Shown here one piece after another: positions 35 to 63,400 of a stretch of DNA of 64,000 nucleotides. Source of the stretch: Vicugna vicugna. Its lineage: Eukaryota. The stretch spans positions 372,001-436,000 of the forward strand of contig MU057801.1 in assembly GCA_013265495.1 (NCBI GenBank), written 5' to 3'. Position 1 is the stretch's first letter, and each line of letters opens with the position of its first letter. Made by a program: the position numbers and the translations under genes. The notes under the pieces were generated by a model. That model was given only the letters and a program-made list of their open reading frames with translations, was not told the DNA's origin and ran no database searches.

Positions 35-459
35 TTTTTTTTAGAAATTGAAGTAGAGTCAGTTGCAGCGTGTCAATGTCTGGTGTACAGCGTCCTGTCC
101 TGGTCATGCACATACAGACATACATTCGTTTTCTTATTTTTTATCAAAGGTTATTACAAGATGCTGAATATAGTTCCCTTGCTATACAGAAGAAATCTGT
201 TTTTTCTAATCTTTTTGTATATATAATGGTTATCATTTGCAAGTCTCAAACTCCCAAATTTGTCCCTTCCCGTCTCCTTTGCCCTCATAACCTACCATAA
301 GATTATTTACTGTGTCTGTGACTCTGTTTGTTTTGTAGATCAGTTCGTTAGTGTCCTCTTCTGTTTCTTTTTTTTTAGATCCCGCATATGAGTGATATCA
401 TGTGGCATTTTTCTTTCTCTTTCTGGCCCACTTCACTCAGAATGACGATCTCCAGGTCC
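35..459 (-). mobile_element. 5'-truncated L1 3' end (artiodactyl/camelid type)
   Basis: Poly-T followed by aattgaagtagagtcagtt...cttcactcagaatgacgatctccaggtcc. Possible TSD ccggccgcctg (23-33) / ccggccccctg (471-481). Confidence 0.85.
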
Positions 460-14879: not shown

Positions 14880-14992
14880 GGGAGGGGGAGGTAAATTAGG
14901 CTTATTTATTTATTTTGGCAGAGGTACTGGAGACTGAACCCAGGGCCTCGTGCAGACTAAGCACACGCTTGACCACTGAGCTGCACCCTCCC
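14880..14992 (-). mobile_element. Camelid Vic-1-type tRNA-derived SINE
   Basis: Reverse complement is gggagggtgcagctcagtggtcaagcg...ctgggttcagtctccagtacctc with an (aaat)n tail, containing Pol III A/B boxes. Degenerate TSD tcattccaactcatt / tcattctaattcatt. Confidence 0.88.
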
Positions 14993-17369
14993 TCCTCATT
15001 CTAATTCATTCTAAGTGTACAACAGACACCAGACCAGAAGGGGAAACACAGAACTCAGGTCTGTGTATATCAGATAAAATATATTTTGACCGATCGTTTG
15101 TACACACGGGACAGTTAACAAGCATGCAGAAAACTCAGAACTCTGTGTTATAAGGTCTGTTGATAAATGTATGTGAATCACGGCATAAACTCACGTGAGG
15201 ATGCACGCCAGTATCATTTTTACTAAAAAGATCAAACCTAATCCGAAGTAGATCTAATTATGTCTAAATCATTTGTTTGGTCATTTAAGCAACTGAAAAA
15301 GAACCAAGAGAAATAATTTGAATCAGTAGAAATTATGTCAACGCCCTTATAGAAGGGCTCACGGAAGGCAAAGTCAGCATGTCGCATGTCTGTTTTCTCA
15401 CCATTTATCGAACGTCCAGCAGTGTTACGGAAGGACTTGTGCAGAAAAAAACCAAAAATAAACTAGAACAAAAGTGCCTCAGAAAACAAAGATGTAGCCC
15501 CTGATCTCAGAAAGCAAACTGTCTAGGTGGAGGGCGATGGACAGACCTGATGAATGAAGGGAACAGACCTCCTGGGCGGCTCACGCACTCACGTGTACAT
15601 GGTGTTCTGTTCCAGAAGCTCGTAGGAAACTGCAAATAAATAGGTCAAAACTTAAACATGTGCTCATTTCTATTCCTTATTTTCTCATCTCAACAGCCCC
15701 CTACCAGACTTCTATCATCATTTCCCTCCAGGTTCTGCATTTTCCCCCTTCCCCCCAAAGTTGTCTTTCTTTCCTCTCCTGTCTAAGGGATGGGACTTAA
15801 AGCTTGCGTTTCAAACTCACTGTGAGAGCCATAATCCATCTTAAGGAACATTTCTTTTAGCCCTAAAAGGTCAGCTTGTGCGTGATGCATGGTTTATTCC
15901 TTCTCGCTGGGGTACCTGTTGTTCTCTATATTTTAAAATCATCCTTTTGTCTAAAAAGGCTAACTTCATGTCATTAGGAAAATAGAATCATAAATGTCTC
16001 AAAAGGCCACGGAGGTAAGAATCTGCTTTCTCACCCATAGTATCGCTGGCACGGTATCTAGTTAAATAGCTTATAGAGACGCCTCTGATTTTTGGTAATT
16101 TACCATCACAAGGGATATTTAATTTCTGTCTATAAAATATGAGTCAATAGATATGGCTTTTATTTTTACTCTACTATTAAGGAAATAAAAAACAAAACCA
16201 AAAATCTAAAACAGGGCCTCCAGTGCCCGGGACATTTTTGGTAGGTGATCAGACCGAGTAGAGGGAAAGCTGGCTTGGCTTGGAGGGTCTTCCGTGTCTG
16301 TTTTTCTTGGCTGTGAAAACGCGTAGTTTGAAGGAACATGAAAGTGGACACATTCTGCTCTCCTCCCACGATGCCTCGCGCCTCCGGCTTCCGGGCAAAA
16401 CAAGCCCTTTGTGAAGCAGCAGAAGCAGTTTTCATTCGCAGTTATCACTGAAAGAGATTTCCAGGCTGGAAAGAATTTTTTTTCACGGTATTTAAAAACC
16501 ATCTATCCTAACAAAAGAAAAAAATAATGCAGCTTTTTCAGGTCACTTTTTCACACCTGACGATGAATCTGTTTTTAATTACAGCCTGGGCACAAAATTG
16601 GGTTCCTCGAGAATCACTGTGACGTCTGATCACCCTCCCGAGACGCCCACCGTCGTTGGTGCTGATGCTAACTCTTGACACCCGAGGCCACTTTGTGTAT
16701 TCAGCGGTTAGGAAGGTGATTTCTGAGGCCTGGCAGCTGTCGGTGTTGAAGCTATTGTGCGGAAAACAAAGGCCATTCTGTTCTGTTCCCCAGGCCTTTG
16801 TGTCGTTGATTCAGGAGCCGTTTTCGTAAATGGGGTTTAATTCTTTACCAGGGAATTTCATTACTGCCCGTGTTTCGATGTTAGCATATGCTTCAGGACA
16901 GCAGAGGCGAATGTCTGAGCACACTGCCTATGGCAGGAATCTTGGGTTCTGACCTCTGTGAGGATGCTTGCATCTTACGTCTGTTCATTAGACCTGCGAT
17001 TGGATGCCATCATCCCGCCACCTCGGCTTCCTGTCCTCTGAACTCTGCACCACCGGACCCAGTCTGCTGCCGCCACCCTTGCCTTGGGAATTAACCAGAA
17101 CACAGTACACAGTGGCACCCACGTGTACCAGTATTGACTATTTCCTCGCAGAATTTCTCATTGACCTGTCCAGGGAAATTCTCATGGGACAGATCAGAGT
17201 CATATTTATTTGAAGAAGAGATATTCACTCTTTCACCTAAACTAGATACATTCATTGTTGTCATTTAGAAAGTGATCAGTTTAGGAAGGTTTTAGTTGCA
17301 TGGAAAAGAAGCAAACCAGCCTAAACAATTGAGGGAACACAGTGGGCTGCATCTTTCTCCCCAGCTGTG

Positions 17370-20150: not shown

Positions 20151-20482
20151 GGACCTTTCTTTCAACCCCTGCATTTTGGGTGCCAGGGACCAGAGTAAGC
20201 CCCCAGGAAGCAGGTCTGTGCATCCCATTGATGTGCTTTCTGTTACCCTCAAAGCACTGCACAGTCTCCTTGAAGAGCCCATTTTCCTGACAGGTGCTTC
20301 CTGAGGACGGTCAGCTTCCCCAGGCAGCTTCCCTAGGGCTCCGCGAACTCCAGCCCCTCTTTCCCGGGAGGGGCCCTGGGGCGCTGTCCAAGAGCTTGGG
20401 CTCGCCGCCTGGCAGCGCCACCACCAACTCAGAACCCTCAGTGTGCACCTGGCTTCTCTCAGACCCAGTTTCCTCATTCATT

Positions 20483-20622
20483 TTTTTTCCATTTTTTGGG
20501 GGGGGATATAATTAGGTTTATTTATTTATAATTATTATTTAAATGGAGGTGCTGGGGATTGAACCCAGGACCTTGTGCATGCTAAGCATGTGCCCCACCA
20601 GTGAGCTATACCCGAGCCCCCC
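20483..20622 (-). mobile_element. Camelid Vic-1-type SINE with TSD
   Basis: attaggtttatttattt...ggaggtgctggggattgaacccaggaccttgtgcatgctaagcatg...gagctatacc. TSD tttcctcattcatt (20469-20482) / tttcctaattcatt (20624-20637). Confidence 0.92.
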
Positions 20623-20660
20623 ATTTCCTAATTCATTGTTTAAAAAGTGTCATAGATGTT

Positions 20661-21585
20661 TTTTAAATTTTATTTTTATTTATTTTTTCATTGAGATATA
20701 AATTGATTTACAATGTTATACATGTTTCAGGTGTACAACATAGTAATTCACAATTTTTAAAGGTTATAGTCCATTATGGTTATTTTAAAATATTGGCTGC
20801 ATTTCCCGTGCCATATAATATATATATCTTTGTACCTTATTTATTTTTTTTAATTTTTTTTATTGTAGTTGATTTACAAAGTTAGTTTCAGATGTACAGC
20901 AAAGCAATTCAGTTATCCATAGACATACATATACACACACATATTTTCATATTCTTATAAGTTATTACAAGAAATTGAATATAGATCCCTGTGCTATATT
21001 GTAGGTTCTTGTTTTTTATCTGTTTTGTATATAGTATTGCATATCTGTTAATCCCAAACTCCTTATTTATTCCTCCTCACCCTTTCTCCATTGGTTATCA
21101 TAGTTTGTTTTCTATGTCTGTCAATTTCTGATTTGTAAATAAAATTTGTATCATTTTTTAGATTCCACATATAAGTGATATGTATTTGTCTTTCTCTGTC
21201 TGACTTACTTCACTTAATATGATAATCTCTAAGTCCATCCATGTTGCTGCAAATGGCATTATTTTATTCTTTTTATGGCTGAGTAGTATTCCATTGTATA
21301 AAGATACCACAACTTCTTTATCCAGTCATCTGTCAGTGGACATTTAGGTTGTTTCCATGTCTTGGCTGCTGTAAACAGGGCTGCTGTGAACACTGGGGTG
21401 CAGGTGTCTTTTCAAATTATAGTTTTCTCCGGATACAAGCCCAGGATTGTATGGTAACTGGACTTTTAGTTTTTTAAGAAACCTTCATACTGCCCTCCAT
21501 GGCGGCTGCACCAAATTACATCCCCACCAACAGTATAGGAAGGTCCCTTTTTCTGCATACCCTCTCCAGCATTTATTATTTGTAT
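20661..21585 (-). mobile_element. Composite of two tandem L1 3' ends
   Basis: Two poly-T/L1 terminus blocks at about 20661-20840 and 20842-21585. Outer near-direct repeat tcatag(a/g)tgttttt at 20650 and 21597. Confidence 0.85.
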
Positions 21586-30076: not shown

Positions 30077-31080
30077 TTTTTTTTTTAATTAAAAAAATTT
30101 TTAGTTGAAATATAGTCAGTTTACAATGTTGTGTCAACTTCTGGTGTACAGCACATGCTTCAGTCATACATGAACACACATCTATTCTTTTTCATACTCT
30201 TTTTCATTATAGGTTGCTACGAGAACCTGAATATGGTTCCCTGTATGTAGGACCTTGTTGTTTATTTTATATATAGTAGTGTGTACCTGCAAATCCCAAA
30301 CTCCCAATTTATCCCTTCCCACCACCTTTCCCCCTTGGACCCACCATAAGATTGTTTTCTATGTCTTTGAGTCTGTCTCTGTTTTATAAATATGTTCATT
30401 TGTGTCAATTTTTTTTAGTTCACATATAAGTGATATGATATTTGTCTTTCTCTGACTTACTTCACTTAGAATGGTATCTCCAGGTCCATCCATGTTGCTG
30501 CATATGGCATTATTTTATTCTTTTTTATGGCTGAATAGTATTCCGTTATATAAATATACCACATCTTCTTTATATAGTCATCCGTCAATGGACATTTAGG
30601 TTGCTTCCATGTCTTGGCTGTTGTAAATAGTGCTGCTGTGAACACTGGGGTGCAGGTGTCTTTTCCAGTTAGCGTTCCCTCCAGATAGATGCTCAGGACT
30701 GGGATTGGTGAATTGTATGGTAACTCTATTCTTAGTTTTTATTTTCCTTGAAATTCAAACATTTTTATATTATTTAAATTACAATTTGGGACTTGTCAAA
30801 GTTACGTTTCATAAATCTTTAAGGAACAAAGCTTTTTTTTTAAATTGGAGTACAGTCAGTTACAATGTGTCAACTTATTTTTAGTTTTTTAAGGAACCTC
30901 CGTGCTGTCCTCCCCAGTGGCTGCAGCACTGCATCCCCACCAGCAGTGCGGGAGGGCTCCCTTTGCTCTGCAGCCTCTCCAGCATTTATCGTTTGTGGAC
31001 TTTTGAGTGATGGCCATTCTGACTGGTGTGAGGGACACCTCATTGTAGTTTTGATGTGCATTTCACTGATGATTAGCGAT
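30077..31080 (-). mobile_element. L1 3' end, interrupted at 30741-30875 by a nested insertion
   Basis: Poly-T followed by gttgaaatatagtcagtttacaatg...gccattctgactggtgtgagggacacctcattgtagttttgat. Confidence 0.9.
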
Positions 31081-42599: not shown

Positions 42600-45100
42600 T
42601 AACACAGAATAAGAAAAAGGGAACACTATCTAGAAAAATCAGAGAAAGAAAGTACTTCTGAAAATATTCCAGAATGCAGGATCCTCCCTTTGTCTCCACA
42701 GCAAACTGTACCAACCTCAGTACAGCCTCCGACTTGGGAGCTGAAGGTGTTCAAAGAGCAGAGATGAGCTGAGGAGGCCACAGGGCAAGAGGAAAAGGGA
42801 GATGAGGGTGTGAAAAAGGATTGATATTAAGTCCCCATCAAGAGACAGAACGGTGTCTGTACGAGTTGGTGGTGTTGGCTGAAGACAAAGCACAAAGTTT
42901 CCCTGGAGGGCAGGGGCCAAAGGGCAAAGGGACACATTTGGTGAGAGAGGCAGGGAGATACAATAGAGGTGAAGGGGACAGGTAGACACTGGTTTTGCCA
43001 AAGAGGCCCAAACAAACAGAACAGAGGTGATAAAGATATGCTAGAAGAAAACTTCCCTTACCTGAGCACGTGGTCTACATTCTGGGCAAAATCAAAGGGG
43101 AAATTTCTCAGCAAGTCACATTCTGACGAAATTATCTATAAGAATGATAGGGGGAAAAATCAGCAAACTTCAAGAGGAAAATAGCAGATTACCAACAGAA
43201 GAACAGAAATAAAGCAAGGGTCAAAAAATGACCTCTCCAGCATTAAATGGCTTAAGAAAATGAAACTGGCCACACAGAATTTTGAAGAAAATGGGTGATT
43301 CAATAAGGACATGCCCACCGAGTTCTCTCCTGTTGGCGGATGGCAGGAAGCTGTTCTTTGTGAGCAAAGCCTGAGAAAAAGGGTCTTCCGTGTTCTTTAA
43401 TTCCCGCTCCGGATAAAGGAGACAGAAAAGAAAAATTCACAATAGTATAAAAGGACATGTGGCAAGCACCACCACCAATTTAAAAGGTAATCTAAATCAT
43501 TTTAATTAATCTGAGAATAAATGCAAGATAGGAACTAATGAATCTTAATCTAAAGTAATCAAACAAAACCAAATTGTTGAAAATAGAAAGAGAGGTAGTT
43601 GGGGAGGCATGTGAAGTGTCTTAAACAAGGAAACCCAAGGCAGTGTATCAGTCTTGATGCTTATATTTAGAGGGAGTATGGCTAAAGCATGCTTTTGAGC
43701 AGCATAAATAAACTCGCCATCCAAAAACCGAAGATGAAATGGAAGGAAACATCTTTAATGTAATCAAAGGGAAGGAAAGAAAATAAACAGCTGCAGTGCT
43801 TAAGTGTGAAAGTATCATGGCATAAACCAACAGTCATAGCAGCGAGAGTCGTGGTTTTAAACCACCCTGTCAAAAGACCAAAGGTCTCTCCTTACACGGA
43901 CTTCAGAATGCAAGAGGAATGCAGTGTTCATTCATAGCAACACCATTTACAGTAGCCAAGACATGGAAGCAACCTAAATGTCCACTGACAGATGACTGGA
44001 TAAAGAAGATATGGTACATACATACAATGGAATACTACTCAGCCATTAAAAGAATGAAATAATGCCATTTGCAGCAACATGGATGGGCCTGGAGATTGTC
44101 ATACTAAGTGAAGTAAGTCAGAAAGAGAAGGAAAAATACCATATGATCACTTATATGCAGAATCTAAAAAAATTAGACAAATAAACTTATTTACAAAACA
44201 GAAACAGACTCACAGATGTAGAAAACAAACTTGTGGTTACCAGGGGTTTAAGGGGGTGGGAAGGGATAAATTGGGAGTTCAGGGTTTGCAGATACTAAGT
44301 ACTGTGTATAAAATAGATAAACCACAAAGTCCTACTGTATAGCATGGGGAACTATATTCAACACCTTGTAATAAGCTATAATAGAAAAGAATATGAAAAG
44401 GAGTATGTATGTGTATGTTTAAATGAATCACTGTGTTGTAACACCAGAAATTGACACAACATTGTAAACTGAGTATATTTCAATTTTTAAAAAAATTTTT
44501 TAAAAAGTTTGAAAACACTAAAAAAAAAAAAGAAAAAGAAAATACAACCACAGTATCTCTAACAACAACAAAATAAAAGTAAAAGAGGTGTACAAAAACA
44601 AGCACGCCCAAGCCGAAGAGTGAAGAGATAGTTACACGTACGCCAGCAGAAGGCGCCAAGCGCGTCAAGCAGCTGGTAGGAGCGGCAGCAACACTCACAT
44701 CCAGTGAAGCAGAACGTCCGAGGGGGATAAGAGCACAGGTACCGACAGAGGGTGAAATCGTGATGATGGCGCGGAGGTCGCGGGCCTGTTCTGTGCTGAA
44801 CGTGGCTGTGCCAGGGGCTGTGTCCCAGAGCAACAGTCCACCTGGAGTGTGGTGTGCGTTTCTGGGCATCGCACGTAAGAATGAGCAGAAACCCCTCCAG
44901 GGACTCAAGGTCACCCCAGATGTTTAGCCGGGGGGCAAAGGCTCCGGGTGGCCGTCCTCAAATATGTGAAGGGTTTTCGTGTAGAAATGAATGGACTTGG
45001 GCAGCGGGGCCTGGGATGCAGATATACTACAGACACCAGAAATGATGGGACCACAGCACTCACTCATCCTGAGAAACAACTTCCTGAGGGTCAGGGCCTC
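42600..45100 (+). mobile_element. Highly decayed old L1 (ORF1 to ORF2 endonuclease remnants), interrupted by a younger L1
   Basis: A-rich sense-strand sequence with ORF1-like (43100-43330) and endonuclease-like (44620-44800) stretches. Confidence 0.5.
43925..44545 (+). mobile_element. L1 3' end with poly(A), sense to CFAP61
   Basis: catagcaacaccatttacagtagccaagacatggaagcaacctaaatgtccac...aattgacacaacattgtaaactgag followed by an A-rich tail. Confidence 0.92.
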
Positions 45101-46160: not shown

Positions 46161-46694
46161 TTTCTTTTTAATTGACATACAGTCAGTTATAATGTGTCAG
46201 TTTCTGGCATCCAGCATCATGTCCCAGCCATGCATATACACACATATATTCGTTTTCATATTCTTTTTCATTAAAGGTTATAACAAGGTATTGAATATAG
46301 TTCCCTGTGTTGTACAGAAGAAATTTGTTTTTCATCTACTTTTATATATAGTGGTTAACATTTGCAAATCTCGAACTCCCAAATTTATCCCTTCCCAGCC
46401 CCTTTCCCCCAGTAACCATAAGATTGCTTACTGTCTACAGCTCTGTCTCTGTTTTGTAGATGAGTTCATTAGTGTCCTCTTTTTTCTTTTTTCTTTTTTT
46501 TTTTTAGATTCCATATTTAAGCGATACCATATGGTATTTTTCTTTCTCTTTCTGGCTTACTTCACTTAGAATGACGATCTCCAGGTCCATCCATGTTGCT
46601 GCAAATGGCATTATTTCATTCTTTTTTATGGCTGAGTAGTATTCCATTGTATAAATATACCACATCTTTATCCAGTCATCTATTGATGGACATT
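46161..46694 (-). mobile_element. L1 3' end
   Basis: Same family as 35-459. The reverse complement includes the ORF2 C-terminal [28 protein letters not shown]. Confidence 0.92.
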
Positions 46695-47134
46695 CTTCCT
46701 TGTTTTTTAATCTAAACACTCACTGTTTGGCATGATAATTCATTGAAAGTTTTATAAATTGAAAGCTCTCTATTAGTTCTTCAGTCTTGCCTTTTTCTGC
46801 AAGGACTTTTCCTGATTTGTTAAAGCATGATTTACTATACTGGCATAATATTACCTCAATTTTATTTTATTTTATACTATAACACTTACTGTAGTTCTGG
46901 TCAAGTTTCAAATCTCCAAAGCTTGGTAGTCAATATTGTGCACTTTAAAACATTCATCAAAATCCTCAGTGGACTGCTTTATGGTAACTAGTGGATAATA
47001 ATTCCAAAATTTTAGTGTGATGTTGCTAAACAAATTATAGTGCTAATGAGAGGTTTTTTAACCTCCACAGTTTTAGTTGTAGTAAATGATCACTACTTTT
47101 GGGTTGTCCTTTAGTATAAAAATTATATTTAAAT

Positions 47135-47251
47135 TATTTAGGGGGGAGGTAATTAGGTTTATTTATTTTAATGGAGGTCCTAGGGACTGAACCCAGAACC
47201 TCATGCATGCTAAGCATGCAGTCTACCACTGACTGAGCTACACCCTCCCCC
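47135..47251 (-). mobile_element. Camelid Vic-1-type SINE
   Basis: ggggggaggtaattaggtttattt...gactgaacccagaacctcatgcatgctaagcatgc...gagctacaccctcccc. Confidence 0.92.
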
Positions 47252-48239: not shown

Positions 48240-48945
48240 CATGGTTTTTACCCAAACTGGCCACATCCAATCCAGTTCCACGTGCTCTTCCATGATCTCA
48301 CCACTCCTGCACGACAGGTGGATTCTGGGTTCCATCTCCTTGACTCCAGGCAGGCCTCTAGGGTGACCTCCGTGAATAGAATATGGCAGGAGAGGCTCTG
48401 CTGGGCTTCCAAGGCTAAGTTAGAGAAGAATGTGGCGCTCTCTGGACTTCTGCCCCCTCTAAGGACGCATGCCTGGGAGCCCAGCCACTGTGTTGTGAGG
48501 AAGCTCAAGTCCCATGGGGAGGCCACATGTGGTATTCTGGCCAGCGACATCCGCTAGACCTATAGTGATGGCTTCACATTTAAAAAAGATACCCAGCATG
48601 TTTTCTTGGGGAAGGAAAAAGGATTGAGAGTTTATCTCCAGGAGATTCCAGCCCCCAGCCATCAAGTCACCCCCAGCCTTCAAGTCTTCCCAACTGAGGC
48701 CTCCCACATCGTGAAACAGAGACAAACTTGCCCCACCTTGCCCTGTCTGAATTGCTGACCTATGGAATCTCTGAGCCTGTTTGTTTTGTTTTGTTTTTTA
48801 AATTGAAGTACAGTCAGTCACAATGTGTCGATTTCTGGCGTGCAGCACACTGTCCCCAGTCCTGCATGTACAGACATTGAGCCTGTTGAACAGTGGTTTG
48901 CACCACTGAGCTTTGGAATCATTTGTTATGCAGCATTAGATGACC
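48240..48945 (+). mobile_element. MLT1-family LTR interrupted by a short L1
   Basis: gagcccagccactgtgttgtgaggaagctcaag...ccactgagctttggaatcatttgttatgcagcattagatgacc. Confidence 0.75.
48782..48877 (-). mobile_element. Very short (about 95 bp) L1 3'-end insertion with perfect TSD
   Basis: TSD tgagcctgtt at 48772-48781 and 48878-48887. (ttttg)n tail followed by aattgaagtacagtcagtcacaatgtgtc. Confidence 0.9.
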
Positions 48946-49325: not shown

Positions 49326-50782
49326 GTAAGGATGCTGGTAACTGTGCATCTTTTCAGAACCGTGTTTTATTCTTATAATGAGTCTCATTCTTTGTCTAGT
49401 TCCAGTATATAATTAGTGCCTAATTAATTCCAACCAAATCATTCATCTGTCATGCTTTGTTTTCCAGATTAATTTACAACTTGTTGTCATTTTTGGATAC
49501 CCAGCATGTTTGCTGGGGGAAAGAAAAAAGCTTGAGATAGTTTAATTATCTATAATTATTTTATTACACAAAATGAATATCTGAAGAGCAAAGCATGGCT
49601 AAAATCATTAACTAATTAAAGAATAATTTAATAAGCAAACATGTTTAGCAATTATATGGAAAATATGCCTCCTTTTGTGGAGCTTTTGAAAAGACCTAGG
49701 AAGAAAAAGAAAGGTCTGAGTCGGAAGGGCTCTTTTCTTTCAGCATCCATTGTTCCCCTCGCTGTGCCAGCTCAGTCCTTCCCACAAACGCACGTATTCG
49801 GGTTCCATGCCGCTCTCTGAATCCAAGTGAGAGAGTGAAACATTTGAGCAAGTAAGTGCCTCTGCCACTCAAAAGTGCTTTCTCCAGCATCTTCCTCTCT
49901 ATTGCTGGGATTAGCGGAAATTATTTGACCAGTAAAATAACCAGAACAGGGCCTGGCTGCCTGTTTGTGTTCACTGAAACTTGGGAGTTGAGTTTTTGAG
50001 ATGAGACTCACTGCAGCCCCTTTCTTTTATCGAAAGTGCAGACAGGATCAGCAACTTGGTTGGGTTATGTGACCCCCTGTTCTGGGCTGGGCTTCTGACC
50101 CAGACCTTCAGTTCAGTCCAGGATCACTAAGTGTCTGGAGTGTGGGGACCGATATATAAAATTAATGTATCACTTTATTTAATGTGTTTATTTAAATATA
50201 ATTTAATTACATTACTTACTATAATTAATCTATTAAAATTAAATACATTCCTTCTGATTTTTTTGGTGGATGATTTAGGCATGAGTTAACTTTTTGTCAA
50301 GTTCCTACATTTGCTTCATTAAAAATCAAAACTACTTATCAAAGGACATTCAATACATTGCTGAATTCAATTTGTTAATACTTGTAGGCAGTTTGCATCT
50401 AAATTCACAAGTGAGATTGGCCTGTTTTCTCTTTTATGCTTGACTTGTCAAGGTTTTGCAATCAAGGGAGTGCTAGCCTCACAAAGGGTTTTGGGGAAGC
50501 TTTCCATATTTTTCTGGGGTCAGAAATACTTTGTGTAACCTAGAAGTTGGACAGAAATCACCCATAAAACCAGCTGGGCCTGGAACTTTTGGGCAGATGT
50601 TGGATGTGTAGATACATGTCAGAAATGCAGATTGAAAACTTGTCAAAGAATTTTAATATTTGCATTATAACTTGGTATTATTTTCAGTTTTGCATCTGTG
50701 TGTGTTTAAACCTGTTTCAACATTTTAGTCATTCTTTAACCACTGCCCTATGACCTAAGTACATTTAGGGAATTCTCTGATC

Positions 50783-53900: not shown

Positions 53901-54859
53901 TCTCATATTCCTGTTCTGATCATACATAATCACTGTTTCTTTTGAAGTGGAAAAGGAAATATAATTCTTCACTAAAGTACAATGGAATATGTAAATATAC
54001 ATACTTAGAAATAATTTAAAATACATAAATTACAAAATGTAGTATATAATTCTTGTTTTCTCTGTTCTTAAAAATATAGTGACAATGAAGAAAAACTCTT
54101 ATTAATATCTGTGTACATAAATCCTAAGTTTATTTCTTATCCTCTTGAGATGTGATTTCCTGCCCAGAATAGCAGACCAGGAAACCCTTCTCGTCTCGTC
54201 TTTTCAGTTGATGCTTTTCTTCCTGGAGAACCCTTCATCTCTACCTCTCGTGTGCTTGCCTCCTTTTGGCGGTCCCGCAGTCCGAGTCGCTGGTGTGAAT
54301 GGTGTAATCACCCGCACCTTCAGCGAGCAGGTGGCAGAGAGCAAAAGCACCACCGTCACCTTTATGCCGATGTTCCAGCGGCAGGTCTCAGTGCTTTTGC
54401 AGCCTGAGGTGGAGACTTGCCAGCTCGAGAGGTGGTGCTATGAATCATCCGGTCCCCTCTTCCTCCCCAGCTGGGCTGTCGCCACGAAGCCCCTCTTCCC
54501 TCTTGGAGGCGCCCTTGCACACCTCGCCTCCAAGGTTGCTGCAGGTTCACGTGAGAGAATGCCTGGGTGCTCTTCCTGCCAACTTCAATTCCGGGAGCTT
54601 TCACACGGTCCTCTTTTTAACCTGCCCTCCTTGCACTCTGCTTCCCGATTCAGATCTGCAGTCTCAGTAATGCATAATTTATTCCCTAGGAGGAGCAACA
54701 AAGATTGGCTTCCCATGCAAACTGCCATGGTTAGATTCCATTATCCCTTTTGTGAAAATGCACCCAGACTGTTCTCATCATCAGTTCTCATTTGCCATTT
54801 CAAAGTAGGGCAGCCCATGCTTTCCCCTGTCACCGCTCAGATCAAGTGCAGAAACTCAT

Positions 54860-54956
54860 TTCTTTCTTTCTGTTTTTTAGCGGAGGTACTGAGGGTTGAA
54901 CCAAGGACCTCGTGCATGCTGAGCACGCCCTCTACCACTGAGCTCGTTCCCTTCCC
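54860..54956 (-). mobile_element. Camelid Vic-1-type SINE (short-tail form)
   Basis: ggaggtactgagggttgaaccaaggacctcgtgcatgctgagcacgccctctaccactgagct. Confidence 0.88.
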
Positions 54957-56610: not shown

Positions 56611-58250
56611 TTTGGGAGGTGGGAGTTGTTTCCAATTAAACTTAAAGACAGACAAAACTATTTAGAAGTTAGCATACCTGTAAGTAAACGTCTAATTTAG
56701 ATATCAGAGGTTTTATGAAATATGTTACCTTTTGAATTGAACGCATCCTCCTCCCTAGCTGCCTGCAGTCTGTGGCTCTCCAAACCGCAGTGGCACCGCA
56801 GTGCCTGGGCTTCCATGAGCCCACAGTGGAAGTGCCCATCTCACAGGGCAGTTGTGAAACACTCACATGAAGGGGACTGGAAGAATATTAAACTCCGAGT
56901 TGCATGGGGCCTCAGTGCTTAGATCTGTGTCACTGGAAATGAATACTGTTTTTGCGTGCATATTTTAAAGAGGCAGAAGAACTCACACCTTGGACAGTTT
57001 TAGGTTCACGTGTTGACGCTCGTGGAGGCTGGCTCTTTGCTGCATCAGCCAGCCAAGAGTCACACTTCACAGCAGGTGGGAGCTTCAATAATTTAAGCAA
57101 AATGTTGGCTCTTTCAGCCAAAGGAGAACGCAGCTCACCAAGGGATGCTGACAGCAGCATCTGAACAGAGCGGCACCCCTGCCACAAAACTGGGGCGTCC
57201 TAGCCAAGGCAGGAAGGAGGGGCCTGGCATCCCAGGTCTGAGCCCCAGGAAGTATGGGAGCACTTCCTGGATGCTCTCGCCCTCAGGGAAGCAACCTGAA
57301 AGCTATTCTGGTTCCTTTTCTTCTAAGCAAATAAGATGAGCCATTATACTTCCTTTCAGTTTTGGATAGAAAGAAATTTTTGCATAATTTATTCCACCCA
57401 GTTGAATAAATACAGTTGCCATTTATTTTGTCTTGCAAAATTCATTTTCATACCGTTTCATAAAAGGAGAAAAGAGAGAGATTCACAAATCCATCATTTT
57501 GCGGTAAAATTGTTACGGCTTGCCTGAAACGTGAGTCTACACGTTTCTTTTCTAGTGAAAAGGTAATAATGCCAATTCAATGTCAAAAATATCATATGGC
57601 ACATCTCCCTCATTTTAATAGGATCAGTGGTTTTTAAGCTTACATAATTTGTACAAGAGCGCATCTCACTTCTTCTGTAGTATTTCTAAGAGATATAAAT
57701 AAATGGCATAGAGTGTTACCATCAAAATGCTCTTACACAGAGGAAATCTTTCAAGATTATTTTGTGATTTTTTATTTTTACTTACCAAAAGGACACCCTG
57801 CAGTCTCCTTTGTTAGGTGTTGACAATTTATATCCCAAAAATCAGAATTTGAATCTTTATAAAATTGTCTATTACAAGCAGAATGTACAAGTCTTTAGTT
57901 CTCAAAAAAAGGGCAAACTTCCCTTGAAGTCGACATGACTTAACAATTACGTATTAAAATATCTGTACCATCACCTACAGGAATAATTTTTTTCTTACTG
58001 CCGTCCTTTTCATCCCTTAGAAAGAACTCGTATTTATTGCAAACTTTTGCAATTACTTTTTCCTTAATGAGTATAGCAAACAGGGAACAAAAACAAGATA
58101 AAGGGTTTTTATTCTAGACAGTTTCATTTAGCATAATTTCAACTTTCAAATTACAGGAACATAAATGAATGGCCTACTTCTGTGTTAAAAGTACTTGACT
58201 ACTTTGTGGGATGTTTTGTGCCAATTCTTTAGGAAATCATCTTGGTCGCC

Positions 58251-58263
58251 GTTGCTAGGAAAC
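58251..58263. promoter_or_regulatory. RFX X-box candidate
   Basis: GTTGCTAGGAAAC, about 140 bp upstream of exon E. Confidence 0.45.
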
Positions 58264-58400
58264 ACCGCTGGCTTCCCGCAGCTGAAAAAAAATGAGAGGG
58301 TTACAGGGAGCAATTCAGCATTATGAGCCTTTGACTAATAAGGTTGTTGGGTTTTTTTTTTTTTTAACTACGTATCTTAGCATGTCACCCCCCGTTCTAG

Positions 58401-58693
58401 GGCATGTCATTGTCTACGGGAACACAATTGACACGTACACGACGGTGGAGGTGCTCCTGAGCGTCGGCGTGCGGGGCTCCCACATCCACCTGGTGCGGCA
58501 CCCACCCACCTCCACCATCACCTGCATCAACAACTACTCAGTGGAAAGCGCGGTGGAGGACGCGCTCAGGGCAGCGGGGGTGACTGTGTACCGGGACGCG
58601 CTCCTGGCTCAGTGGAACGACGGCCAGGACCCTGACCCCATCCGCAGCGCCAGCTTCACCACGCCCACCAAGCCCTTCACGCTCCCCTGCTCA
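58401..58693 (+). CDS. CFAP61: CFAP61 internal coding exon E (293 nt; GG + HVIVYGNTIDTYTTVEVLLSVGVRGSHIHLVRHPP...SFTTPTKPFTLPCS)
   Basis: Acceptor cccccgttctag| and donor TCA|gtaagt. G+GG across the junction gives Gly. Exons A-E total 864 nt, or 288 codons with no stop. Confidence 0.95.
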
Positions 58694-58800
58694 GTAAGTG
58701 GGTCCCCCCAAACCTCACTCACCACCTGCGAGAGCCGCCACCTTCCTGGGACGTGGGATCTGGAAGGCGGTGGGCGGTGCATTTATAGTTACAGGGTTTG

Positions 58801-59333
58801 TTTTTTCATTTGAGAAAAGGTAGATTTATTCAGAGAGATACATAGTCCATAGGCAGAGAGCAGGCTGTTGCCGAAGGCAAGAGAAAGGCCACAGAGGTGT
58901 GCGGGGGGTGCTTAGTTTAAAGTAAAAGCAGGTCCACACTCCTTAGACCAAGTGCAGGTCATCTCAGAAGGGAGGGCGGCCGCGAGGTGCGGGGGCTGTT
59001 GGTTTTTATGGGCTCGGTAACAAGCGGGAGGGCTAGTCCAGCTACTTTGGGGGAGGGGCTGGGATTCCTAGGAGCTGGGCTGTCACCTGCTTGCTGACCT
59101 CTTATGGTCAGCCTCAGGACTGTCGTGGCGCCCGTGGGAGCGCCACTCACCATGCTAATGTATTACAGTCAGCATGTAATGAAGCTCAGGGTCAAACCTC
59201 CTGGAAAAGGAAGTCAAACCTCCCGCCATCTTGGGCCTCAAGGCCTCCGGGGAGTTGAATCTCCGCTTTCCTGCTGTTAACTGCTGTGCCCTTCCTTCAA
59301 TAGCGGTGCCCTGCCCGCTTCCTTCCTGTCTCA
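58801..59333 (-). mobile_element. ERV1-type (MER41-like) LTR, U3-R only, ending in poly(A)
   Basis: The minus strand starts TGAGACAGGAAGG at 59333. It has a YY1-like aagatggcgg, a TATA-like cataaaa near 59005 and AATAAA at 58830-58825, then 18 nt and an A-run. The subfamily name is tentative. Confidence 0.75.
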
Positions 59334-59579
59334 TATCTTCCTGCAGAACAGCTTTCTGAGACCTGCTCAGACTGTCCCAAGGCTTCTCTGCCCTTTCCAT
59401 CATAAAACCCAAGTGCCTTGGCTTGGCATTCAAGGCCCCACCCCATGCTCTCTGCTCTCAACTTCAATTTCCAGGCTTAGCACTTGCCACTTCCCACCTG
59501 GACTGAGACCCTCTTGAAGACAGGTCGCATCTGGTTCGCCTCTGGGTGTAGTTACAGGGTTTGCTCCCTAAATGTTCAG

Positions 59580-60100
59580 ATTTTCTATTGCTAAATAATG
59601 AGCCACCCAAACTTAGCGGCACGGAAAGACAACCATCATTCGTTAGTATCTCTCGTGGTCCTGGGGTTTGACCGGGCCCAGTGGGCAGCTCCCCCTGGAG
59701 GTCTCTCATGTGGTTGGCGTCACACGGGGGGCGGAACCGGAAGCATCGAGAAGGCGTGCTCACCTGCTCGTCCGGCTGTTGACGCTAGGGGAACTTCAGC
59801 TGAGATTTTGCCCCGAACACTTATAAATGATCTCTTTATGGGACCGAGCTGCCTTTCAGCATAGTTGGTTCCAAGAGCAAGTGGAAGAGAGAGACCCAGA
59901 GACACACAGAGAGAGGGAGGGACACGCCGTAGCCAGAGACACACAGAGAGACGGAGGGACACGCCGTAGCTCCTTCCACGACCTAGCCTTCGGAGTCAAG
60001 CAGATCACATCTACCACCCCTGTGACTTAGCGGCAGGTCACTAAGGCTCAAAGGGAGGGGACCCCGCTCTTCATGGAGGGGCTGCCAGGATTTGAGGGCG
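59580..60100 (-). mobile_element. MLT1-family LTR
   Basis: ctattgctaaataatgagccacccaaacttagcggc...tccacgacctagccttcggagtc...gtcactaaggc. Confidence 0.7.
59896..59970. repeat. 37-bp tandem duplication (2 copies, 1 mismatch)
   Basis: ccagagacacacagagaga(g/c)ggagggacacgccgtag x2. Confidence 0.92.
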
Positions 60101-60457
60101 CCAGCACTGGCTCAGAGCTTCCTTGTCCCAGGCCCCTTGCTGCGTGCTCGCAGGGCGTTCTGTCCCTCCTCACAACAGCTCTGTAAAGGGAAGCGTCCCC
60201 ACTGTACAGATGAGAACACCGCGTCCCCCCGCCAGCAGTGTACTGAGCTCCCCACCCAGGCCAGCAAGACCCCAGAGTCTGCGCTCTCCACCTCCTAAGC
60301 TTCTGGAAACAGCAGTGGTGGGTCTTTCCCCGTGGGGTAGAGACTTGGAAGATACGCATAGAGAGAGCGCTGTGCGCTGGGGCGTGTGACAGCTCAGCTC
60401 GCACCCAGAATACACAGCGGCGGCCGTTCCGATTAGCAGAGGCCCGGGGCGGGGGAG

Positions 60458-63245: not shown

Positions 63246-63400
63246 ATTTTATTAAAAATTTTTAAAATTTATTTATGTTTTGTTGGGGGGAGGTAATTAG
63301 GTTTATTTATTTATTTATTCCTTAATGGAGGTGCTGGGGATGGAACTCAGGAACTAATGCATGCTAGGCATGCACTCTACCACTGAGCCACACCCTCCCC
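63246..63400 (-). mobile_element. Camelid Vic-1-type SINE with TSD
   Basis: ggggggaggtaattaggtttatttatt...ctctaccactgagccacaccctcccc. TSD atctctgcattctactt (63229) / atctctgcattttaatt (63403). Confidence 0.92.

What the first reader, a model, noticed from the sequence alone, without database searches (positions are those of the whole stretch)
58786..59563. LTR apparently moved by L1: U5-less ERV LTR plus foreign flank, poly(A) tail and perfect 15-bp TSD
Seen: tagttacagggtttg occurs exactly at 58786-58800 and 59549-59563. On the minus strand the enclosed 748 bp reads, in order: about 215 bp of non-retroviral, L2-like sequence with no polypurine tract before the LTR; the LTR from its TG at 59333; AATAAA; 18 nt; and an A-run abutting the repeat. 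Established: retroviral integrases make 4-6 bp TSDs and insert complete TG...CA LTRs, whereas L1 target-primed reverse transcription gives 7-20 bp TSDs and poly(A). Inference: a transcript from another locus read into a solo LTR, was polyadenylated at the LTR signal and was retroposed here as a 5'-truncated retrocopy or orphan transduction. This rebuilt an antisense U3 promoter about 100 bp downstream of exon E. Caveats: the A-tail is short and the inferred nick site (TTTG/CT) is non-canonical.
Basis: partly seen in the sequence, partly recalled or inferred. Interest (0 to 1): 0.7.

Follow-up and report, generated by a model that had tools for sequence, protein, structure and literature searches.

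The report
Viral end-piece copied through RNA
Inside a sperm-tail gene of a camel-family animal sits the end-piece of an old virus plus some neighbouring DNA that was most likely copied there through an RNA by the cell's LINE-1 machinery; the structure is real, but this kind of event is already known.

Summary
The anatomy is real. An exact 15-mer (58786, 59549) brackets 748 bp in a CFAP61 intron of a camelid. Laying public genome contigs on the stretch shows that 58810-59333 belongs to a high-copy LTR family. Other copies run on past 58810 with shared sequence (U5), where this one turns into a short A-run 15 nt after AATAAA. The 215-bp flank is not family sequence, and it has a second copy, about 96-97% alike, at half the normal depth in 3 of 3 DNA runs. 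Best reading (0.78): an RNA that read through unique DNA into a solo LTR was polyadenylated at the LTR signal and pasted here by L1-type target-primed reverse transcription. Not shown: an empty site; a donor with flank joined to a whole LTR (the second copy seems to part from this one at the LTR edge); a consensus L1 nick site (absent); any promoter use. HERV-W processed pseudogenes and the mouse Lama2 dy-Pas allele, an L1 transduction polyadenylated inside an IAP LTR, are precedents. One locus, known kind, no shown effect: low interest.

The parts
58401..58693 (+). CFAP61 coding exon (host gene; matches residues 837-932 of a 1237-aa CFAP61 chain)
   Evidence: phmmer E 3.6e-47 to PDB 8j07_d0; AG at 58399-58400 and GT at 58694-58695 seen directly
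58786..58800 (+). left copy of the 15-bp direct repeat (inferred target-site duplication)
58801..58809 (-). short decayed A-tail (7 A in 9 nt) where other family copies continue into U5
   Evidence: loose ends at 58810
58825..58830 (-). AATAAA polyadenylation signal of the LTR, 15 nt before the end of family likeness
58810..59333 (-). U3-R part of an LTR of a high-copy family, antisense to CFAP61, starting with TG at 59333, U5 absent (ERV1-type class recalled, not tested)
   Evidence: 1816, 1976 and 1887 contigs laid in three DNA runs, depth profile and loose ends
59004..59010 (-). TATA-like motif of the LTR, with a GC box at about 58979; promoter use not shown
   Evidence: motif scan; function inferred only
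59334..59548 (-). 215-bp non-family flank carried with the LTR; resembles an L2 relic lying on the + strand (recalled); has a second copy about 96-97% alike at half depth, perhaps a third
   Evidence: table 8 (123-nt contig, 4 other letters and 4 gap letters over 59344-59470, in X1, X5 and X2)
59549..59563 (+). right copy of the 15-bp direct repeat; inferred first nick after 59563 (TTTG/CT)
   Evidence: crossed by a 97%-alike contig of run X19 (59210-59598)

Best explanation
A germ-line RNA from another locus ran through about 215 nt or more of unique DNA into a solo LTR, was cut and polyadenylated at the LTR's own signal (so U5 was lost), and was copied into this CFAP61 intron by L1-type target-primed reverse transcription. 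The + strand was nicked after the 15-mer, its T-rich end primed on the A-tail, synthesis stopped 215 nt past the LTR, and a second nick 15 nt away gave the duplication. Shown: repeat, tail, U5 loss at the poly(A) site, intact U3 edge, a second copy of the flank. Inferred: L1 as the enzyme, the 15-mer as a true TSD, the second copy as the donor locus or its relic, and what drove the RNA (a host gene, or an upstream L1, which would make it an orphan 3' transduction). The result is most likely a neutral antisense relic.
For: Exact 15-mer touching the A-run, chance about 4e-5. Family copies continue with shared sequence at exactly the base where the tail begins, in 4 of 4 runs. Depth drops about a hundredfold past 59339, so the flank is not the family's internal sequence. 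A second copy of the flank exists in 3 of 3 DNA runs and shares exact words with the window only between about 59335 and 59506; no DNA contig was laid in 59540-59880 or 58700-58779. These hallmarks (U3-R end, poly(A), 5-15 bp TSD) are those given for L1-processed ERV copies (PMC5016936, passages). Polyadenylation of an L1-moved RNA inside an LTR is documented for mouse Lama2 dy-Pas (PMC6466679, passages).
Against: The nick site TTTG/CT is not the 5'-TTTT/A consensus (consensus from PMC4476161, passages). The tail has only 7 A in 9 nt. The flank's second copy does not appear to carry a near-identical LTR: the window LTR is one unbroken contig at single-copy depth (58822-59364 in X1, 58816-59364 in X2; X5 has one break at 59209-59238), and all three runs break at 59364, implying a difference at 59334. 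Sharing no 31-mer over 484 nt has probability under 0.002 at 6% divergence, 0.03 at 8% and 0.13 at 10%, whereas the flank copies differ by about 3% (interval 1-7%). So the donor LTR is lost, was never fixed, or has diverged faster. A recalled 12-nt L2-tail motif matches with 2 mismatches at 59562, just outside the right 15-mer (1 of 12 such hits in the window; about 0.3% for a given 40 nt, chosen after looking), which would fit a native flank. No empty site was seen.
Confidence: 0.78

Rival explanations
1. Native flank: the 215 bp is an old L2 relic that always lay in this intron. The U5-less LTR came in by an RNA route with a local rearrangement (a long target duplication, or a local retro-duplication later trimmed by deletion), leaving 15 bp that mimic a TSD. 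The half-depth second copy would be a leftover or separate duplicate.
For: A recalled L2-tail motif falls just outside the right 15-mer, in the right orientation. The second copy parts from the window at the LTR edge and seems to lack the LTR.
Against: It needs several rare steps and does not explain why the LTR starts at its exact first base. The second copy's shared words stop near 59506 and none were seen beyond 59540. The motif hit is weak, post hoc and overlaps the start of a neighbouring repeat. No tool confirmed L2 likeness.
Confidence: 0.08
2. Two-source chimera: reverse transcription began on a U3-R poly(A) RNA and switched template, at the LTR's first base, to an RNA or DNA from the locus that holds the flank's second copy, which never had this LTR.
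For: The second copy's likeness appears to end at 59335, one base short of the LTR, and it shares no 31-mer with the LTR. Template-switch chimeras flanked by TSDs are known (PMC4476161, passages).
Against: No natural RNA starts at the first base of U3 (established retroviral biology: transcripts start at R). A switch at exactly that base is about a 1-in-500 event, whereas read-through explains the junction for free.
Confidence: 0.07
3. DNA-level templated insertion: a 748-bp DNA piece from the donor was captured at a staggered break during repair, and the cut at the poly(A) site is coincidence.
For: Non-consensus nick site and short tail.
Against: Family likeness ends 15 nt after AATAAA and is followed by A-rich letters that the family lacks; a clean 15-bp duplication is typical of target-primed reverse transcription.
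Confidence: 0.05
4. Ordinary solo LTR inserted by integrase, U5 later deleted, 15-mer a chance repeat.
For: Solo LTRs are the commonest ERV state (PMC6466679, passages); the TG edge is intact.
Against: Chance of the repeat at that position about 4e-5; the A-run sits at the poly(A) site; the flank has a recent second copy.
Confidence: 0.02

Closest known systems
HERV-W processed pseudogenes (L1-mobilised ERV RNA; PMC5016936 and PMC5537654, passages read)
   Same: 3' end has U3-R without U5, a poly(A) tail and a 5-15 bp target duplication.
   Different: Those are colinear with proviral mRNA (R-U5, internal genes, U3-R) and show TT/AAAA sites. Here the LTR is preceded by low-copy non-viral DNA with no polypurine tract, and the nick site is not consensus.
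Mouse Lama2 dy-Pas allele: L1 3' transduction polyadenylated inside an IAP LTR (PMC6466679, passages)
   Same: An RNA reads into an LTR, is polyadenylated there, and is moved by L1 into an intron.
   Different: That insert keeps a nearly full-length L1 and has a mapped source and a phenotype. Here no L1 sequence is in the insert, the source is not mapped and no effect is known.
Orphan transductions of L1 and SVA (PMC12593883, passages)
   Same: Only the transduced flank is inserted, after early 5' truncation, with tail and TSD.
   Different: An orphan transduction is defined by a source element upstream of the donor; none could be looked for here.
Retro-DNAs: DNA-transposon pieces moved passively by L1 inside host transcripts (PMC11195612, passages)
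   Same: A repeat of another class is copied by L1 as part of a host RNA; parents are often not found (715 parent sites for 1,750 entries).
   Different: The cargo here is an LTR, which supplies its own poly(A) signal.

Membership tests
Integrase-made solo LTR | complete U3-R-U5 ending in CA | tested here: not met
   family continues past 58810 in 33, 33, 36 and 6 contigs; the window copy does not
Integrase-made solo LTR | 4-6 bp duplication directly at both LTR ends | tested here: not met
   the duplication is 15 bp and lies 215 bp from the TG end
HERV-W-type processed pseudogene | 3' LTR reduced to U3-R | tested here: met
   loose ends; AATAAA 15 nt before the end
HERV-W-type processed pseudogene | colinear with proviral mRNA (internal viral sequence and polypurine tract before U3) | tested here: not met
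   flank is low-copy, 10 of 18 purines before TG, 0 Pfam families in 5 of 5 flank frames tested (weak, since the CFAP61 exon control also gave 0)
L1-mediated (TPRT) retrocopy | target-site duplication of about 5-20 bp | tested here: met
   exact 15-bp direct repeat bounding the insert
L1-mediated (TPRT) retrocopy | empty site with one copy of the duplication in an outgroup or allele | not testable with these tools
   no genome held; flanks not shown; no mammalian outgroup collection
L1-mediated (TPRT) retrocopy | 3' poly(A) tail not templated by the source | tested here: met
   7 A in 9 nt where the family has other sequence; short and decayed
L1-mediated (TPRT) retrocopy | endonuclease site resembling 5'-TTTT/A (usual, not universal) | tested here: inconclusive
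   TTTG/CT, or GTTT/GC one base over: T-rich but not consensus, so L1 as the enzyme stays an inference
L1-mediated (TPRT) retrocopy | parent locus holding the same sequence and running on past the poly(A) site | tested here: inconclusive
   second copy of the flank found, but no matching LTR seen beside it
Orphan L1 3' transduction | source L1 upstream of the donor | not testable with these tools
   donor position unknown
L2 relic (the flank) | alignment to an L2 consensus | not testable with these tools
   no repeat library; nhmmer against the rest of the window best E 2.7; Rfam best E 0.56, unrelated families; resemblance recalled

The most novel reading that the evidence does not exclude
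The insert is a two-source chimera: the flank comes from a single-dose (probably X- or Y-linked) locus that never carried this LTR, and reverse transcriptase joined it to a U3-R poly(A) template at the LTR's exact first base plus one extra A. That would point to capture of a retroviral cDNA end or of a U3-initiated RNA during L1 target-primed reverse transcription, a junction type that my searches did not turn up.
Probability: 0.07. Interest if true: 0.55.

Novelty: new member of a known kind. Interest (0 to 1): 0.25.

Why it matters
It is a clean camelid example that an LTR can change address without integrase, by lending its poly(A) signal to a read-through RNA that L1 then copies. Repeat annotation would count it as an ordinary truncated LTR. 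One review abstract calls HERV-W the sole human ERV group specifically mobilised by L1 (PMC5537654), but passive capture of single loci is expected and has precedent (PMC6466679). It would matter more if the U3 promoter fires antisense into CFAP61 in testis, if U5-less tailed copies are common in this LTR family, or if the flank's source never had the LTR. None of these is shown.

Tried and rejected
Own-genome search: no genome held, so no BLAST for the donor. Motif scans for other LTR copies gave 2 hits each in viral, metagenome and prokaryote contigs; all 6 of 6 match only the 18-21 nt motif and are chance. No second LTR or flank copy lies in the window (best other hits E 0.19 or worse). L2 identity of the flank: not confirmed by nhmmer against the window or Rfam. 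Viral coding in the flank: 0 Pfam hits in 5 stop-free frames, but the exon control also gave 0. Presence in populations: 18 of 24 listed runs hold 0.90-0.99 of the words of 58300-60400 (16 organism A, 2 organism B, 6 studies; 4 may be the source); the list is ranked by best holders, so it does not show fixation. Absence of DNA cover outside 58780-59539 may be due to the human-likeness filter and is not read as a hole. RNA run X19 is unstranded contigs and may contain DNA, so it is not used as evidence of promoter activity. RNA editing as the source of the LTR's private changes: rejected, since G-for-A and C-for-T rows are equal (10 and 10 among the 40 of 148 rows shown). How many family copies end in an A-tail at 58810 could not be counted (912 loose-end rows not shown). 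Earlier findings of this scan: nothing relevant. Literature searches found no report of this locus; subscription papers such as the original HERV-W pseudogene studies and all supplements were not seen.

Full report
Setting. The window is mammalian. It carries tRNA-Ala-derived SINEs that I recognise from memory as the camelid Vic-1 type, and the runs that hold it assemble to about 2.0-2.15 billion letters. The exon at 58401-58693 encodes part of CFAP61 (E 3.6e-47 to PDB chain 8j07_d0, residues 837-932 of 1237). The finding therefore lies in an intron, 92 nt after the splice donor. No whole genome was available.

Observation. The 15-mer occurs exactly twice, at 58786 and 59549, enclosing 748 nt. 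For a repeat starting within 20 nt of the LTR's cut end and recurring within 2 kb, chance is about 4e-5; the window has only one other non-tandem exact direct repeat of 15 nt or more within 2 kb. On the minus strand the insert reads 215 nt of flank, TG at 59333, one AATAAA at 58830-58825, 18 nt and A6.

What the LTR is. I laid assembled contigs of three DNA runs (X1, X2, organism A, both possibly the source; X5, organism B) and one RNA run (X19) on 58700-59880 at 80% likeness. 1816, 1887, 1976 and 414 contigs were laid. Depth is very high from 58780 to 59339 and falls about a hundredfold after it. At 59333, 38 contigs of X5 leave with unrelated sequence (agreement 0.37): the LTR's 5' edge. At 58810, 33, 36, 33 and 6 contigs leave with one shared sequence (agreement 0.73-0.92): the U5 that this copy lacks. 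Family likeness thus ends 15 nt after AATAAA, just after a CA, and the remaining 9 nt hold 7 A. This rules out the possibility that the family simply ends here. The class ERV1 is recalled, not tested.

The flank. It is not family sequence (low depth, no polypurine tract). In 3 of 3 DNA runs, 59344-59470 is covered by two contigs: a 127-nt one identical to the window (depth 22.4, 28.3, 37) and a 123-nt one with 4 other letters and 4 gap letters (depth 9.3, 16.3, 16.1). The second is 0.42-0.46 of the median depth of 13 other contigs per run. A single-dose locus (X or Y in males, or heterozygous in all three) fits; contig depth is a rough measure. Depth sums suggest the two copies share sequence to about 59506 and leave a steady residue (8.6-9.1, 15-18, 13.7-14.7) that may be a third half-depth copy (not listed as a piece, so unconfirmed). 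A recent second copy confined to the stretch between the LTR edge and the right 15-mer is what a moved flank predicts.

The result against the simple donor picture. In Logan contigs all 31-mers are distinct (10.1101/2024.07.30.605881, passages), so a near-identical donor LTR should break the window's LTR contig. It does not: 58822-59364 in X1 and 58816-59364 in X2 are single contigs at single-copy depth; X5 has one break, at a place where many family contigs begin. All three end at 59364, most simply because the second copy differs at 59334 and does not rejoin. Simulated chance of no shared 31-mer over 484 nt: below 0.002 at 6% divergence, 0.03 at 8%, 0.13 at 10%, against about 3% (1-7%) in the flank. 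So the second copy has lost the LTR, never fixed it, never had it, or the LTR has diverged much faster. Faster change is possible: among the 36 shown rows where most family depth differs from the window, the window has G/C for A/T in 26 and the reverse in 5 (p 2e-4; only 40 of 148 rows were shown). This is an inference from graph shape, with assembly simplification as a caveat.

A second caution. From memory the flank resembles the 3' end of an L2 on the + strand, and a recalled 12-nt tail motif matches with 2 mismatches at 59562, just outside the right 15-mer. It is one of 12 such hits in the window, about 0.3% for a given 40 nt, and chosen after looking. If real, the L2 could be native to the intron. 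No tool could test L2 likeness.

Age. X19 holds a contig over 59210-59598 with 10 other letters and 3 gap letters; it crosses the right 15-mer and is not the second copy (net +3 against -4). Organisms A and B differ from the window by 0-1 letters in 424-549 nt, so the filled site also exists in a record 2.6% away. With 2.5e-8 per five-year generation (PMC8605555, passages) 3% means about 3 million years; with slower long-term rates (recalled) 8-15 million.

Mechanism. Most likely (0.78) a read-through RNA was polyadenylated at a solo LTR's signal and copied by L1-type target-primed reverse transcription, stopping 215 nt past the LTR. The nick site TTTG/CT departs from the 5'-TTTT/A consensus (PMC4476161, passages), so L1 as the enzyme is inferred. 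Rivals: native flank with local rearrangement (0.08), template-switch chimera (0.07), DNA capture at a break (0.05), ordinary solo LTR with chance repeat (0.02). A TATA-like motif (59010-59004) and a GC box survive, but nothing shows promoter use.

Comparison. It works like the 3' end of a HERV-W processed pseudogene (PMC5016936, PMC5537654, passages) but is not one: no internal viral sequence precedes U3. The nearest case is mouse Lama2 dy-Pas, where an L1 transduced an IAP LTR and was polyadenylated inside it (PMC6466679, passages); early truncation of such an RNA gives an orphan transduction (PMC12593883, passages). Passive L1 copying of other repeat classes inside host RNAs is also described, often without a findable parent (PMC11195612, passages). 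General retrocopy hallmarks are as in PMC7692494 (passages). Seven searches showed no report of this locus; supplements were not read.

Verdict. Observation confirmed, interpretation partly supported, a new member of a known kind. Interest 0.25; the open point is the apparently LTR-less, half-depth source of the flank.

Noticed in passing
window 58810-59333: The LTR copy differs from the family majority with a strong A/T-to-G/C bias (26 against 5 among 36 majority rows; 21 against 5 without CpG-type rows; 40 of 148 rows shown). The exon beside it is 64.5% GC with CpG o/e 0.77, while 57000-58402 is 38.7% GC. Suggests local GC-biased gene conversion.
   Followed up: partly
window 59344-59499 (contigs): One, perhaps two, extra copies of the flank at about 0.4 of normal depth in three animals of two organism labels; X- or Y-linked copies would fit.
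   Followed up: partly
window 59191-59201 and 59213-59223: An 11-nt local direct repeat inside the LTR, at a place where about 40 family contigs per DNA run stop matching (loose ends at 59209): probably a private insertion in this copy.
   Followed up: no
window 58994-59187 (run X19, record 13): An RNA-run contig 94% alike to the LTR centre (12 differences in 194), closer than the other long family pieces listed (about 81-88%); could be the orthologue or a sister copy.
   Followed up: no
window about 59573-60030: Looks like an MLT1-type MaLR LTR on the + strand starting about 10 nt after the right 15-mer (recalled, not tested); it holds a 37-bp tandem duplication at 59896-59970, 97% alike.
   Followed up: no
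window 48588-48634 and 49496-49544: A 47-49 bp direct repeat, 86% alike, 908 nt apart, with a 16-nt exact core; origin not worked out.
   Followed up: partly
window 14884-15010, 20480-20637, 47119-47250, 54859-54944, 63264-63400: Five related tRNA-Ala-derived SINE copies, recalled as camelid Vic-1; two are called tRNA-Ala by ARAGORN.
   Followed up: partly
window 36-459, 20910-21583, 30089-30996, 43931-44503, 46165-46694: Related 400-600 bp repeats, 69-80% alike, recalled as L1 3' ends.
   Followed up: no
PDB chain 9fqr_Xg: A 1236-aa chain labelled CFAP20 is the best match to this CFAP61 exon; the label looks wrong.
   Followed up: no
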